This document shows positions 6,523 through 12,794 of a DNA stretch of 64,000 nt, piece by piece. How positions within the stretch are numbered: the stretch's first letter is position 1; the number at the start of each line of letters is the position of its first letter. The notes beneath the pieces were generated by a model. It was not told the DNA's origin. It searched no databases and saw only the letters and a program-made list of their open reading frames with translations. The translations under genes and the position numbers were made by a program. The stretch lies in assembly GCF_054482525.1 (NCBI RefSeq), contig NZ_CM137006.1. The stretch is one strand, 5' to 3'.

Positions 6523-6598
6523 GGCCCTTTAGCTCAGTGGTGAGAGCGAGCGACTCATAATCGCCAGGTCGCTGGTTCAAATCCAGCAAGGGCCACCA
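6523..6598 (+). tRNA. tRNA with CAT anticodon (Ile2/Met-type)
   Basis: 76 nt cloverleaf ending CCA; anticodon loop CTCATAA; close to E. coli ileX as recalled. Confidence 0.7.
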
Positions 6599-6599
6599 G

Positions 6600-6676
6600 C
6601 CGCCACTAGCTCATCAGGAAAGAGCGTCAACCCTTTAAGTTGAGTGTGCGAGGTTCGAGTCCCCGGTGGCGGTCCA
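6600..6676 (+). tRNA. Atypical tRNA-like gene (anticodon loop CCTTTAA, UUU with C33); possibly non-canonical or pseudo-tRNA
   Basis: 77 nt; acceptor CCGCCAC/GTGGCGG plus T-CCA; D-arm GCTC/GAGC; T-loop TTCGAGT; one A-C mismatch in T-stem. Confidence 0.4.
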
Positions 6677-6678
6677 GT

Positions 6679-6754
<76 letters not shown>

Positions 6755-6757
6755 TAT

Positions 6758-6832
<75 letters not shown>

Positions 6833-8910: not shown

Positions 8911-9177
8911 GTGAACGTAGAAAACCTAAGTAACGCACATTACATCTATAACGAGATGAAAGAGCTACAGCGACAGAAAGGTATACTGGAAAGTGGTGCA
9001 GGGCTTGGTGTGACAATCCAGTCTGCCTATCAATATAGTGCTTTTCTTGAGGCCATACGCCCGCATGCAGTTGCTGAACTTAACAGCCGTATTGAGGAAA
9101 AGAAATCCGCGCTGGTTAATTTGGGTGCTTCCTTCTCTATATACGAGCATAATAAGGCGGGTTGGAAACCCGCCTAA
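8911..9177 (+). CDS. Hypothetical protein
   Basis: 88-aa ORF after Rz; ends in a bidirectional hairpin (ggcgggtt..aacccgcc, about 9152-9176). Confidence 0.35.
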   Translation: MNVENLSNAHYIYNEMKELQRQKGILESGAGLGVTIQSAYQYSAFLEAIRPHAVAELNSRIEEKKSALVNLGASFSIYEHNKAGWKPA

Positions 9178-9182
9178 AGCAC

Positions 9183-9722
9183 TTAGAAACTGCGTGGAGC
9201 TGTGGAAAGAATGGATGCCAGTTCTTCCTTCGATAAATCCCAGCTTCGATTTACAGCGTCAATTTTCTTAAACTCATCAAGCATTGCGTTATAGAGATGT
9301 TCTGTACGTGAATGAGTATTGGCAATGGGCTGTTTCTGTTCGGGGAAGCGATCAATTTTCTGATATGCCTCAATGATACTGAAGTAATCGCATTCATTAT
9401 TACCGTCGAAACCTGGGAGCTGAATTGCCCCATCATGTATTTTTAGATGATGGTCACGGACTAATTCTTTTTGCTCGTCATCACTAAGTTTCCTGAAAGC
9501 ATTGGAAAGTCCGCGATACATATTCAAGACAGCAGTAACAAAATCACGATCTTCTTTACTTGGTTCATCAACATCCAAATGTGAATATTCGGCCTTCATA
9601 ACCCAACCATTACCAGATGACACAGCATATTTAACAAGCTGTGGATCAATATCAGTTTCGATACCTAGGTGGATGGCAATGTCACATAACAAAATGGTAT
9701 TGATTTTATCTTTAATATCCAT
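9183..9722 (-). CDS. YfbU-family (UPF0304-like) protein, antisense to phage late genes
   Basis: 179 aa; by-eye alignment to E. coli YfbU as recalled (..NMY..L, GFD, THS, LSKEELASI); only credible minus-strand gene in the prophage part. Confidence 0.5.
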   Translation of the reverse strand: MDIKDKINTILLCDIAIHLGIETDIDPQLVKYAVSSGNGWVMKAEYSHLDVDEPSKEDRDFVTAVLNMYRGLSNAFRKLSDDEQKELVRDHHLKIHDGAIQLPGFDGNNECDYFSIIEAYQKIDRFPEQKQPIANTHSRTEHLYNAMLDEFKKIDAVNRSWDLSKEELASILSTAPRSF

Positions 9723-9860
9723 GAGTTAACCCTCTGAAGTAAAAAGTAATATCTACACCCGTTAGCTCATGAAGTCTATTGATCTGGCTCATATCAGCGG
9801 CAAATCTATTTCATGGAGATACTCAATGCAGGTCACTTTTGATTTATATAAGGGCGAAAC

Positions 9861-10211
9861 ATGCCAGCACTAATCCCACGAGCCTGCCGTAAACGTGGAT
9901 GTGCAGGTACAACCACAGACAGTTCTGGTTACTGCGATAAACATCGTGGCGAAGGATGGGTACAGCATCAGCGCGGACTGAGTCGCCACCAGCGTGGCTA
10001 TGGCTCGAAATGGGATGCCATACGTGCGCGCATACTGAAGCGTGATAATGATCTGTGTCAGAACTGCCTGCGCAATGGGAGAGCCGTTGAAGCCAGAACT
10101 GTGGACCACATCATTCCGAAAGCTCATGGTGGCTCGGATGCAGACAGTAACCTGCAGAGTCTGTGCTGGCCCTGCCATAAAGCAAAAACAGCGCGCGAAC
10201 GCATCAATTGA
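9861..10211 (+). CDS. HNH endonuclease (packaging-associated)
   Basis: 116 aa; CxxC...DHIIPKAHGGSDADSNLQSLCWPCHKAK; immediately upstream of terminase small subunit. Confidence 0.75.
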   Translation: MPALIPRACRKRGCAGTTTDSSGYCDKHRGEGWVQHQRGLSRHQRGYGSKWDAIRARILKRDNDLCQNCLRNGRAVEARTVDHIIPKAHGGSDADSNLQSLCWPCHKAKTARERIN

Positions 10212-10360
10212 TAACAGTTCCCATCTGTAGGGGAGGGGTGGGTCAAATCCCTGCAGCCCTGGCTGCTCAGTACCGCCGCCTGACCCTTCCTCACATCGCC
10301 GCAGGTTCGAAAACTTTTTTTTTGGAAATGTGAACAAACGATTGATAGGTAAGACCGATT

Positions 10361-10843
10361 ATGTCAGGACCTCCGAAAACCCCGCCACGCCTGCATTTGA
10401 TTCGAGGTAACCCCTCAAAGCGCCCCGTTAAAGACCACAAAAAAACCGCTAAAAAGGATGAAAAAGGTCTTCCTAAAATTCCGCAGCATTTAGGGGCTCA
10501 GGGGAAGTACTGGTTCAGGCGAATGGCGGAAGAGCTGAATGCGGAAGGGATCATTTCTCAGCTTGATGCGCGTGCGCTCGAGCTGCTGGTGGAAGCCTAC
10601 ACCGAATATCGGCATCACTGCGAAACACTCGATGTTGAGGGGTATACCTACCGCACGGAAACGCAGAGCGGTGATGTACTGATTAAGGCGCACCCCGCGG
10701 CGGCAATGAAAGCGGATGCCTGGAAGCGGATCCGGGCAATGCTTGCAGAGTTTGGTATGTCACCGGCAAGCCGGGCTAAAGTAAATATCGCCGGACCGGA
10801 TGATGTTGATCCGCTGGCGGAGCTTTTAAAAGCGAGAGACTGA
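10361..10843 (+). CDS. Terminase small subunit (P27-type)
   Basis: 160 aa basic N-terminus; stop overlaps start of large terminase. Confidence 0.7.
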   Translation: MSGPPKTPPRLHLIRGNPSKRPVKDHKKTAKKDEKGLPKIPQHLGAQGKYWFRRMAEELNAEGIISQLDARALELLVEAYTEYRHHCETLDVEGYTYRTETQSGDVLIKAHPAAAMKADAWKRIRAMLAEFGMSPASRAKVNIAGPDDVDPLAELLKARD

Positions 10844-12600
10844 TGGCAAAAGTGGCTGACGGGATCCGCTACGCCGAACGTGTTGTTGCAGGAGAAATTG
10901 TTGCTGGCGAATTTGTCCGCCTGGCCTGCCAGCGTTTTCTTGATGATCTGAAGTACGGCGAAGAGCGGGGGATTTATTTCAGTGAACCCCGTGCGCAGCA
11001 CATCCTGAATTTCTACAAATTTGTGCCTCATGTAAAAGGGGCGCTGGCAGGCCAGCCCATTGAGTTGATGGACTGGCATGTATTTATCCTCATTAATATT
11101 TTTGGTTTTGTCATTCCGCTGGTCAATGAAGAGACCGGGGAAGTTGTCATGCGCAGCGATGGCAGCGGACGTCCGGTGATGGTGCGCCGGTTCCGGACGG
11201 CGTACAACGAAGTCGCCCGTAAAAACGCAAAATCAACTCTGTCATCGGGTATCGGCCTGTATATGACGGGGGCAGATGGTGAAGGCGGAGCTGAGGTGTA
11301 TTCAGCCGCAACCACGCGTGACCAGGCCAGAATCGTGTTTGAAGACGCCAAAAATATGGTCAGAAAAGCCCGGTCGACACTCGGGCGGTTGTTTGATTTC
11401 AACAAGCTGGCGATTTACCAGGAGCAGAGCGCATCAAAATTTGAACCGCTTTCTTCGGATGCAAACAACCTAGATGGTCTGAACATCCACTGCGCCATTA
11501 TTGATGAGCTGCATGCACATAAAACCCGTGACGTGTGGGACGTTCTGGAAACGGCAACCGGTGCCCGTCTGCAGTCCCTTTTATTTGGTATCACCACGGC
11601 AGGGTTTAACAAGGAAGGGATTTGTTACGAGCAGCGTGATTACGCCATCAAGGTATTGCGTGGCTATAACAGCGACGTGGAGGGCGCGGTAAAAGACGAC
11701 TCCTACTTTGCGATTATTTACACCCTCGATGAGGGAGATGATCCGTTTGATGAAACGGTCTGGCAGAAAGCGAATCCCGGCCTGGGCATCTGTAAACGCT
11801 GGGATGATCTGCGTCGCCTGGCGAAAAAAGCGAAAGAACAGGTCTCTGCGCGGGTGAATTTTTTTACCAAACACATGAATGTGTGGGTAACAGCAGAGTC
11901 TGCCTGGATGGACATGATTAAGTGGGAGAAGTGCGAATACATTGCCCCACGACATGAGCTGAAAACGTATCCCATGTGGGTCGGCGTTGACCTTGCTCAT
12001 AAGATTGATATCTGTGCGGCGGCAAAACTCTGGCGAACGGATAACGGGCATGTTCATGCCGATTTTAAATTCTGGCTTCCGGAAGGACGGCTGGAACGAT
12101 GCTCGCGGCAGCAGGCAGAACTTTACCGGAAGTGGGCGGAGATGGATAAGCTGATTCTGACGGATGGTGATGTTATCGATCATGCTCAGATAAAAAGTGA
12201 CTTACTGGAATGGATTGGTGGTGAAAACCTCAGGGAACTGGGATTTGACCCGTGGAGCGCGATGCAGTTCAGCCTGGCACTGGCTGAAGAAGGGATACCG
12301 CTGGTGGAGGTTCCGCAGACGGTTCGCAATCTGTCAGAGGCCATGAAGGAAACGGAATCACTGGTCTATGCCGGGCGTTTCCATCACAGCAATCATCCGG
12401 TCATGAACTGGATGATGTCTAACGTTACGGTAAAACCGGACAAAAACGACAATATCTTCCCGAATAAATCCACGCTGGAAGCCAAAATCGACGGCCCTGT
12501 TGCGATGTTTACAGCAATGAGCCGGATGCTGGTCAATGGTGGTGAACCGGAGCTGGATCTGTCTGAACATCTGGTCAGCGTGGGCATCCGCTCGCTTTAA
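10843..12600 (+). CDS. Terminase large subunit
   Basis: 585 aa; ATPase Walker-like region and nuclease C-terminal half; position before portal. Confidence 0.85.
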
Positions 12601-12611
12601 CCGAGGTCATT

Positions 12612-12794
12612 ATGTTTCTGATAATTCTCGCGCCACTGGTGGGCGTGCTGGGTGCGCTTTTGCTGGCGTATGGTGCCTGGCTGATTTATCCCCCGGCGGG
12701 TTTTGTTGTTGCCGGGGTGCTGTGCCTGTTCTGGTCGTGGCTGGTGGCGCGATATCTCGACCGTACACAGCCGTCTGTCGGCGGAGGTAAATAG
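12612..12794 (+). CDS. Small membrane protein (2 predicted TM helices)
   Basis: 60-aa hydrophobic ORF between terminase and portal; stop overlaps portal start. Confidence 0.3.

What the first reader, a model, noticed from the sequence alone, without database searches (positions are those of the whole stretch)
10212..10360. Candidate cos / packaging initiation region between HNH and terminase small subunit genes
Seen: a GC-rich segment (gggaggggtgggtcaaatccctgcagccctggctgctcagtaccgccgcctgacccttcc...) in the intergenic gap upstream of terS; on the minus strand it contains GGCGGCGG-like sequence reminiscent of the lambda cohesive end. Established: HK97-like cos phages pair an HNH endonuclease with terminase. 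Inference only.
Basis: inference. Interest (0 to 1): 0.25.

Follow-up and report, generated by a model that had tools for sequence, protein, structure and literature searches.

The report
HK97/P27-type prophage cos packaging site
The gap between the HNH nuclease gene and the small terminase gene of this E. coli prophage holds an ordinary HK97/phiP27-type cohesive-end (cos) site, where the phage DNA is cut for packaging; the kind is already known.

Summary
Window 10212-10360 lies between an HNH endonuclease gene (9861-10211) and a P27-family small terminase gene (10361-10843). An HK97-like large terminase, portal, protease and capsid gene follow.

The gap aligns without gaps to mapped or annotated cos sites:
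- the HK97 and HK022 genome ends;
- the 10-nt SfI cohesive end;
- the "cos-site" feature annotated in phiP27.

From that register I predict three elements:
- a G-rich/TCAAATC box at 10230-10249;
- a 24-bp spacer of fixed length;
- a 10-nt 3' cohesive end, CGCCGCCTGA, at 10274-10283.

A conserved block follows at 10284-10323 and ends in a T9 tract. It is probably the small-terminase binding site, as at +15 to +29 in HK97.

All 78 related viral loci that extend past the HNH gene carry one such site. The block downstream of the cut switches in step with the small-terminase family. The upstream box and the cut site are shared across families.

The resemblance to lambda is superficial: this is a 3'-overhang, HNH-assisted system. 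No virion ends have been mapped for this exact variant.

Interest is low. The only possibly new point is the conserved upstream box.

The parts
9861..10211 (+). HNH endonuclease gene (gp74-like packaging accessory nuclease)
   Evidence: PF01844 E 2e-16. 37% identical to HK97 gp74 over 70 aa, E 4e-12. 88% identical to phiP27 L34. RefSeq annotation 'HNH endonuclease' in the identical E. coli locus.
10230..10249 (+). G-rich/TCAAATC box (GGGGAGGGGTGGGTCAAATC), upstream cos element of unknown binding partner
   Evidence: Unique in the window. Present in the same register in HK97, phiP27, F1055 and mEp235 and in related IMG/VR loci. It keeps a fixed distance to the cut while the distance to the HNH gene varies from 72 to 812 bp. 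Mean identity to the window is 78% in divergent relatives, against 61% for the spacer.
10250..10273 (+). 24-bp spacer of fixed length and variable sequence, ending in the conserved AC
   Evidence: The length is invariant across 59-67 distinct sequences, HK97 included, while the sequence is poorly conserved. The palindrome GCAGCC-CT-GGCTGC at 10254-10267 is not conserved.
10274..10283 (+). Predicted 10-nt cohesive end CGCCGCCTGA (3' overhang). Predicted nicks: bottom strand opposite 10273|10274, top strand at 10283|10284
   Evidence: Same columns as the last 10 nt of HK97 and HK022 (CGCCGCCAAA), the phiP27 'cos-site' CGCCCGCCCC and the run-off-mapped SfI end TGCCCGCCCC. The HK97 numbering was checked against the published contacts T16 and G21. 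Homology only; no ends were mapped for this variant.
10284..10323 (+). Conserved downstream block CCCTTCCTCACATCGCCGCAGGTTCGAAAAC-T9; putative small-terminase binding site (core 10295-10323)
   Evidence: Nearly invariant up to the end of the T run, after which conservation collapses. 83% identity in relatives whose terS DNA is 66% identical. The block type matches the TerS family wherever one was assigned: 43, 25 and 2 cases, and again with the HK97 gp1 type added. HK97 TerS binds +15 to +29, C:G pairs next to a 9-bp A-tract. Binding is inferred, not shown.
10324..10360 (+). Variable linker up to the terS start codon
   Evidence: Information content is near zero. 54% identity in divergent relatives.
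10361..10843 (+). Small terminase gene (P27 family, PF05119)
10843..12600 (+). Large terminase gene (HK97-like ATPase and nuclease)
   Evidence: PF03354 and PF20441. 29% identical to HK97 gp2 over 455 aa, E 7e-41.

Best explanation
Window ~10230-10323 is the cos site of an HK97/phiP27-type lambdoid prophage of E. coli.

Proposed mechanism, by homology with HK97: after induction the concatemeric phage DNA is cut here by the large terminase with the help of the adjacent HNH nuclease. The cut leaves a 10-nt 3' cohesive end, CGCCGCCTGA (10274-10283). DNA is then packaged rightward, starting at 10284 and running through terS, terL and onward.

The ring-shaped small terminase recognises the conserved block just inside the new left end (core 10295-10323, a GC-rich segment followed by a T9 tract). 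It marks the site for initiation. At the next cos it acts as a roadblock that stops the motor with the cut site in the nuclease.

The G-rich/TCAAATC box sits 24 bp upstream of the cohesive end, on the DNA that is packaged last. It is a second conserved element that does not depend on the small-terminase family. It is most likely read by the HNH nuclease, the large terminase or the portal during cutting or termination, analogous in position to lambda cosQ.

Shown here: gene identities, the ungapped homology to mapped or annotated cos sites, the conservation pattern, and the pairing of downstream block with small-terminase family. Inferred: the exact nick positions in this variant, small-terminase binding at 10295-10323, and any role for the box.
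For: 1. Gene context is HNH, gap, P27-family TerS, HK97-like TerL, portal, S78 protease, HK97-fold capsid.
2. The gap aligns without gaps to the HK97 right end ...GGATCAAATC-N22-AC-CGCCGCCAAA|. HK97, HK022 and a third 36,661-bp genome record end exactly at the predicted top-strand cut.
3. The phiP27 'cos-site' feature and the run-off-mapped 10-nt SfI end fall in the same 10 columns.
4. In 80 IMG/VR loci chosen only for encoding an HNH relative, all 78 that extend past the gene have such a site downstream of it. The 72 found by the strict both-strand scan each have exactly one, on the HNH strand; the other 6 were found by a relaxed forward-strand scan.
5. There are three islands of conservation: box 78%, cohesive end 89%, downstream block 83%. 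They are separated by a fast-evolving spacer (61%) and linker (54%), and terS coding DNA is 66% (profile).
6. The downstream block type matches the TerS family wherever one could be assigned, across four families, while the box and cut site are shared. This matches HK97, where TerS binds +15 to +29 next to a 9-bp A-tract.
7. The TerS model's best structural match is HK97 TerS bound to DNA.
8. The module is widespread and nearly identical in isolated phages (97.7% to vB_EcoM-606R7) and occurs in 1079 of 5426 complete E. coli genomes.
Against: - No phage record with the window-type downstream block starts or ends at the predicted cut, so the ends of this variant were never seen directly.
- The raw HK97-versus-window match over 60 nt is only 33/60 and barely tops the window (the next best is 32). 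The case rests on the structured pattern and on intermediate sequences.
- The pairing of downstream block with TerS family could reflect simple physical linkage, since they lie 41-77 bp apart.
- My site detector used regular expressions on the cohesive end, the box composition and part of the downstream block. This inflates some conservation figures.
- The basis for the phiP27 cos annotation could not be read.
- The integrase of the 100%-identical XH992 prophage is annotated as frameshifted, so this copy may never be packaged.
Confidence: 0.87

Rival explanations
1. The sequence is a cos site by descent but is inactive here. It sits in a defective prophage that is never excised or packaged, so it has no current function.
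For: The integrase of the 100%-identical prophage in E. coli XH992 is annotated as frameshifted. The early region resembles the cryptic Qin/Kim type, with dicA, dicB, dicC and hokD.
Against: HNH, TerS, TerL, portal, protease and capsid ORFs are all full length with full-length Pfam matches. The cos elements match those of relatives recovered as phages, 95-98% identical. No disruptive change is seen in the box, cut site or downstream block compared with relatives.
Confidence: 0.15
2. It is a cos site, but the nicks or the overhang differ from my prediction, for example by a shift of 1-2 nt or an overhang of 9-12 nt.
For: The window's cohesive-end sequence (CGCCGCCTGA) differs in its last three bases from HK97 and from phiP27/SfI. 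NAR 2022 gives the HK97 overhang as 10 nt in one place and 12 nt in another. No ends were mapped for this class.
Against: The ungapped register is shared by three independently characterised sites. The window-type downstream block starts exactly at +1 in recombinants that carry a phiP27-like left part (L028-L032: CGCCCGCCAA|CCCTTC). The spacer length is invariant.
Confidence: 0.12
3. It is a lambda-like cos, with cosN giving a 12-nt 5' overhang around GGCGGCGG on the minus strand.
For: A GGCGGCG core is shared with lambda's GGGCGGCGACCT (lambda sequence as quoted in PMC12315714).
Against: TerL belongs to PF03354/PF20441 and is homologous to HK97 gp2. TerS is P27 family, not Nu1-like. An HNH partner is present. 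The SfI run-off data show a 10-nt gap, as expected for 3' overhangs, and HK97 ends are 3' overhangs.
Confidence: 0.02
4. It is not a packaging site but an ordinary intergenic regulatory element (terminator, promoter, small RNA or tRNA remnant), and packaging is headful.
For: GGTTCGAAAAC followed by a T run loosely recalls a tRNA T-arm or a terminator tail.
Against: No tRNA is found there. No Rfam match appears even at E<=1. No promoter-like or terminator-like site is found in 9600-10600. Alifold gives no supported structure. The elements travel with the cut site and not with either flanking gene. TerL is of the HK97 cos type.
Confidence: 0.02

Closest known systems
Bacteriophage HK97 cos site (with HK022)
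   Same: The order is the same: HNH gene, cos, terS, terL. A G-run/TCAAATC box lies exactly 24 bp before the cohesive end, which is preceded by AC and starts CGCCGCC (7 of 10 bases identical). A GC element plus an A/T tract follows within about 40 bp downstream. TerL is 29% and HNH 37% identical. The TerS fold is the best structural match.
   Different: TerS has no detectable sequence similarity, and the downstream block is unrelated in sequence: HK97 has GTTTGAATTTAACGCTAACCCGATTTTTTT. The window's T9 tract lies at +32 to +40, against +23 to +31 in HK97. The last three bases of the cohesive end differ. HNH-to-cos distance is 72 bp here and about 320 bp in HK97.
phiP27 annotated cos-site (NC_003356, 21806-21815) and the SfI/SfV/SfII/SfIV cos (TGCCCGCCCC / AGCCCGCCCC)
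   Same: HNH is 88% identical to phiP27's. The upstream box and spacer are homologous (about 82% DNA identity up to the cut). The register and the 10-nt length are the same. TerS is P27 family.
   Different: The cohesive-end core is CGCCGCC rather than YGCCCGCC. The downstream block belongs to a different class (RTCRNNTTTTTAYACCCGCGAAA in phiP27/SfV). The TerS belongs to a different cluster, at most about 32% identical.
Lambda cos (cosQ-cosN-cosB)
   Same: The layout has three parts: an upstream element on the last-packaged DNA, a GC-rich nicking site, and a downstream small-terminase binding region next to the terminase genes. A GGCGGCG core is shared.
   Different: Lambda has a 12-nt 5' overhang, Nu1/gpA terminase, no HNH partner, and IHF-assisted cosB with R sites. 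There is no sequence homology beyond 7 nt. This comparison rests on established knowledge of lambda and was not tested here beyond the Pfam families.
HNH-dependent cos packaging in staphylococcal phages phi12/phiSLT and SaPIbov5
   Same: A cos site lies next to HNH and terminase genes, and packaging of cos-delimited units depends on HNH (PMC5052747).
   Different: Gram-positive hosts. No sequence comparison was made here.

Membership tests
HK97/P27-type cos site (3'-overhang, HNH-assisted) | Lies between an HNH endonuclease gene and the terS-terL pair of an HK97-like head module | tested here: met
   HNH 9861-10211, TerS 10361-10843, TerL 10843-12600, then portal, S78 protease and HK97-fold capsid.
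HK97/P27-type cos site (3'-overhang, HNH-assisted) | Large terminase and HNH homologous to HK97 gp2 and gp74 | tested here: met
   TerL 29% identity, E 7e-41. HNH 37% identity, E 4e-12.
HK97/P27-type cos site (3'-overhang, HNH-assisted) | Sequence homologous, in register, to cos sites with mapped ends | tested here: met
   Ungapped register shared with HK97 and HK022 genome ends, the SfI run-off-mapped end and the phiP27 annotation.
HK97/P27-type cos site (3'-overhang, HNH-assisted) | Virion DNA has fixed ends with a 10-nt 3' overhang at this site | not testable with these tools
   Needs virion DNA. No database record of this variant begins or ends at the site.
HK97/P27-type cos site (3'-overhang, HNH-assisted) | Small terminase binds a specific site about 15-30 bp downstream of the cut that includes an A-tract | tested here: inconclusive
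Lambda-type cos (12-nt 5' overhang, Nu1/gpA) | Lambda-type terminase (GpA large subunit, Nu1 small subunit) | tested here: not met
   TerL matches PF03354/PF20441 and TerS matches PF05119; no GpA or Nu1 family was reported.
Headful (pac) packaging | No fixed ends; terminase of a headful clade | tested here: not met
   TerL is homologous to the cos enzyme of HK97. The site is homologous to mapped cos ends. Permutation of ends is not testable here.

The most novel reading that the evidence does not exclude
The G-rich/TCAAATC box (10230-10249) may be a packaging signal that the literature I could search does not describe. It is held exactly 24 bp upstream of the cohesive end and is shared by phages whose small terminases belong to four families, the HK97 type sharing no detectable sequence similarity with the window's. 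If so, it is independent of the small terminase and is read by the HNH nuclease, the large terminase or the portal, a functional counterpart of lambda cosQ for HNH-assisted 3'-cos phages. On this reading the cos site is modular: a box and cut site matched to HNH/TerL, and a swappable downstream block matched to TerS, with recombination joints at the cohesive end itself.
Probability: 0.4. Interest if true: 0.45.

Novelty: new member of a known kind. Interest (0 to 1): 0.2.

Why it matters
For this window it simply places the packaging origin of a common E. coli prophage family, found in about 20% of complete genomes. It also predicts the virion ends, which helps when linearising assemblies, interpreting induced-lysate coverage and judging what DNA the phage can mobilise. 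More generally, the comparison gives testable coordinates for the small-terminase site of the P27 family, for which I found no solved structure and no mapped DNA site. It also points to a conserved upstream box in the HK97 model system, whose role could be tested directly in the existing HK97 in vitro packaging and cos-cleavage assays.

Tried and rejected
- tRNA or RNA element: ARAGORN finds tRNAs only at 6523-6832. Rfam gives nothing in 9000-11500 at E<=1.
- Promoter or terminator: none in 9600-10600.
- Repeats in the gap: only 7-nt chance pairs.
- Spacer palindrome GCAGCC-CT-GGCTGC (10254-10267): not conserved. The best stems across 59 distinct relatives average 3.9 bp against 3.2 bp in shuffles, and alifold gives no structure. 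I rejected it as a feature.
- Direct physical ends for the window-type site: no phage record begins or ends there. mEp235 is linearised at the terS ATG, and Fraca carries an assembly overlap.
- Raw 60-nt HK97-versus-window identity as a statistic: too weak on its own, 33 against 32 for the next best. I replaced it with the structured pattern test.
- Literature: the phiP27 genome paper and Kala et al. 2014 are not held, so the experimental basis of the phiP27 annotation is unverified. Among papers that mention both cosQ and HK97, I searched the text of two HK97 papers (PMC10359639, PMC11331095); in both, cosQ appears only in the reference list and no upstream HK97 element is described.

Full report
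**What is there.** Window 10212-10360 is the 149-bp gap between two + strand ORFs.
- The upstream ORF (9861-10211) has an HNH domain (PF01844, E 2e-16).
- The downstream ORF (10361-10843) is a Terminase_4/P27-family small terminase (PF05119, E 2e-25).
- Next come a large terminase with TerL_ATPase and TerL_nuclease domains (10843-12600), a portal, an S78 prohead protease and an HK97-fold capsid protein.

The stretch 9861-10900 is 100% identical to chromosomal prophages of several E. coli strains. There RefSeq annotates a lambdoid prophage with a Qin-like early region, antiterminator Q, four tRNAs, a lysis cassette, this head module and lambda-like tails. The HNH-cos-terS module occurs in 1079 of 5426 complete E. 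coli genomes.

**Checking the observation.** The quoted sequence is at the stated coordinates.
- The first ~90 nt of the gap are 62% G+C against 50% for the window.
- CCGCCGCC sits at 10273-10280, so the minus strand reads GGCGGCGG. The octamer occurs five more times in the window and means little alone.
- The composite pattern is more than chance. A pattern taken only from the right end of the HK97 genome (TCAAATC, 22 N, ACCGCCGCC) matches the window once with no mismatches, at 10243-10280. Only 0.06 matches are expected even with 2 mismatches allowed.
- The G-rich box pattern matches once, at 10230-10249.

**Homology to mapped or annotated cos sites.** A search of phage records found phiP27, whose GenBank record carries a "cos-site" feature (CGCCCGCCCC) between its HNH and terS genes.

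The HK97 record ends ...GGGGGGGGGATCAAATC-(22 nt)-AC-CGCCGCCAAA and restarts GTTTGAATTT. The published HK97 numbering fits the record: cleavage between -1 and +1, TerS contacts at T16 and G21, minimal TerS site at +15 to +29, and a 10-nt 3' overhang. So the record end is the top-strand cut (PMC11331095; PMC9410871).

The SfI cohesive end was mapped by run-off sequencing of virion DNA as a 10-nt gap, TGCCCGCCCC (PMC3636060).

All of these align to the window without gaps, which gives this layout:

| Element | Window coordinates | Sequence or note |
|---|---|---|
| G-rich/TCAAATC box | 10230-10249 | GGGGAGGGGTGGGTCAAATC |
| Spacer | 10250-10273 | 24 bp, ends in AC |
| Predicted cohesive end | 10274-10283 | CGCCGCCTGA |
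| Predicted nicks | 10273\|10274 (bottom), 10283\|10284 (top) | by homology only |

In a separate scan of viral contigs, the HK022 (40,751 bp) and HK97 (39,732 bp) genomes and a third 36,661-bp genome end exactly 3 nt after ACCGCCGCC.

**Family-wide test.** I collected 80 IMG/VR loci chosen only because they encode a relative of the HNH protein (73-100% identity).
- Of these, 72 contain exactly one site with this architecture in a both-strand scan, always on the HNH strand and downstream of the HNH gene.
- Six more have a site under slightly relaxed thresholds in a forward-strand scan, and the remaining two loci end at the HNH gene.
- The distance from the HNH gene to the cut ranges from 72 to 812 bp, because some relatives carry extra genes in between. 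The box-to-cut spacing never changes.

So the box belongs to the cut site and not to the HNH gene.

**Modularity.** The sequence just downstream of the cut falls into discrete classes.
- The window type is CCYTTYYTCRCAYCGCCGCAGGTTMSAAAAC followed by T7-9.
- The phiP27/SfV type is RTCRNNTTTTTAYACCCGCGAAA.
- There are also an F1055 type and an HK97 type.

Each class goes with one small-terminase family: 43, 25 and 2 assigned cases in the HNH-selected set. The pairing holds again in a second, pattern-selected set that adds the HK97 gp1 type, 15 with a complete ORF. The box, the spacing and the CGCC(C)GCC core are shared across all classes.

Recombinants L027-L032 join a phiP27-like left part to a window-type right part, with the joint within or just before the 10-nt end. 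In L028, L031 and L032 the downstream block starts CCCTTC at +1 (TCCTTC in L030).

The window's TerS has no detectable sequence similarity to HK97 gp1, while HNH (37%) and TerL (29%) are homologous. This pattern is what one expects if the downstream block is the TerS site, as shown for HK97. It also fits a box and cut site read by conserved partners. Physical linkage of the block to terS could produce the same pairing, so this step remains an inference.

**Conservation.** Within the window class, columns from the cut to the end of the T run are nearly invariant, and information then drops to about zero up to terS. The table gives mean identity to the window in 59 distinct relatives whose TerS is under 80% identical.

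| Segment | Mean identity to window |
|---|---|
| Box | 78% |
| Spacer | 61% |
| Cohesive end | 89% |
| Downstream block (+1 to +40) | 83% |
| Linker | 54% |
| terS coding DNA (first 300 nt) | 66% |

My detection rules constrain parts of the box, the cohesive end and the start of the block, so those figures are somewhat inflated.

**Mechanism.** The most likely mechanism follows HK97:
1. TerS marks the site from its downstream block.
2. TerL, with the HNH nuclease, makes staggered nicks that give a 10-nt 3' overhang.
3. DNA is packaged rightward from 10284.
4. At the next cos, TerS stalls the motor and the cut is repeated.

The upstream box lies on the DNA that is packaged last, about 35-54 bp before the top-strand cut. 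Its position is analogous to lambda cosQ. The HK97 papers I could read do not mention it. Its function is unknown. I favour recognition by HNH, TerL or the portal, with moderate confidence.

**Alternatives.** No tRNA, Rfam family, promoter, terminator or conserved secondary structure explains the region. The 6-bp palindrome in the window's spacer is not conserved. The lambda analogy fails on terminase families and overhang polarity. The main caveats are:
- no ends have been mapped for this variant;
- the basis of the phiP27 annotation could not be read;
- this prophage copy may be defective, since the integrase is frameshifted in the identical XH992 locus.

**Verdict.** Interest is low. The conserved upstream box and the modular layout are the only points that may be new.

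Noticed in passing
window 6523-6832: There is a cluster of four tRNA genes (CAT anticodon, Lys-TTT, Thr-TGT, Gly-TCC) just downstream of the Q antiterminator gene. ARAGORN calls the first one Met; RefSeq annotates it as tRNA-Ile in the identical E. coli locus.
   Followed up: no
window 9183-9722 (minus strand): A YfbU-family gene (PF03887) sits in the opposite orientation between the lysis cassette and the HNH gene. It looks like a moron-type insertion in the late operon.
   Followed up: no
window 10254-10267: A perfect 6-bp palindrome, GCAGCC-CT-GGCTGC, lies between the box and the cut. Most relatives have GCAACC, which breaks it, and stems across the family are not longer than in shuffles.
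   Followed up: yes
L027-L032 (IMG/VR), cos region: These are mosaic phages: a phiP27-like HNH end and upstream cos half joined to a window-type downstream block and TerS. The joint lies within or just before the 10-nt cohesive end; L028 and L030-L032 carry CGCCCGCCAA. The cohesive end may act as a recombination joint between packaging modules.
   Followed up: partly
L024, L025, L033-L056 and others (IMG/VR): One or more extra ORFs are inserted between the HNH gene and cos, including one with repeated CxxC...H...C zinc-knuckle-like motifs. These move the HNH gene up to 812 bp from the cut without changing the cos layout.
   Followed up: partly
L022 (IMG/VR), about 180 nt after the cut: An IS-type transposase-like ORF (MSRKNQRYSKEFKAEAV...) is the first long ORF after cos instead of terS. 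This suggests an IS insertion that disrupts the packaging module in that contig.
   Followed up: no
window 10315-10323 and relatives: The T run in the putative TerS site varies from T7 to T9 among otherwise near-identical relatives. The HK97-type run varies in a similar way, T6-T8.
   Followed up: partly
window 12612-12794: A small 60-aa hydrophobic ORF lies between terL and the portal gene, in the same position as the phiP27 L37 'membrane protein'.
   Followed up: no
L088 1964-3014 (E. coli XH992, outside the window): The integrase of the 100%-identical prophage is annotated as frameshifted, so this copy may be unable to excise.
   Followed up: no
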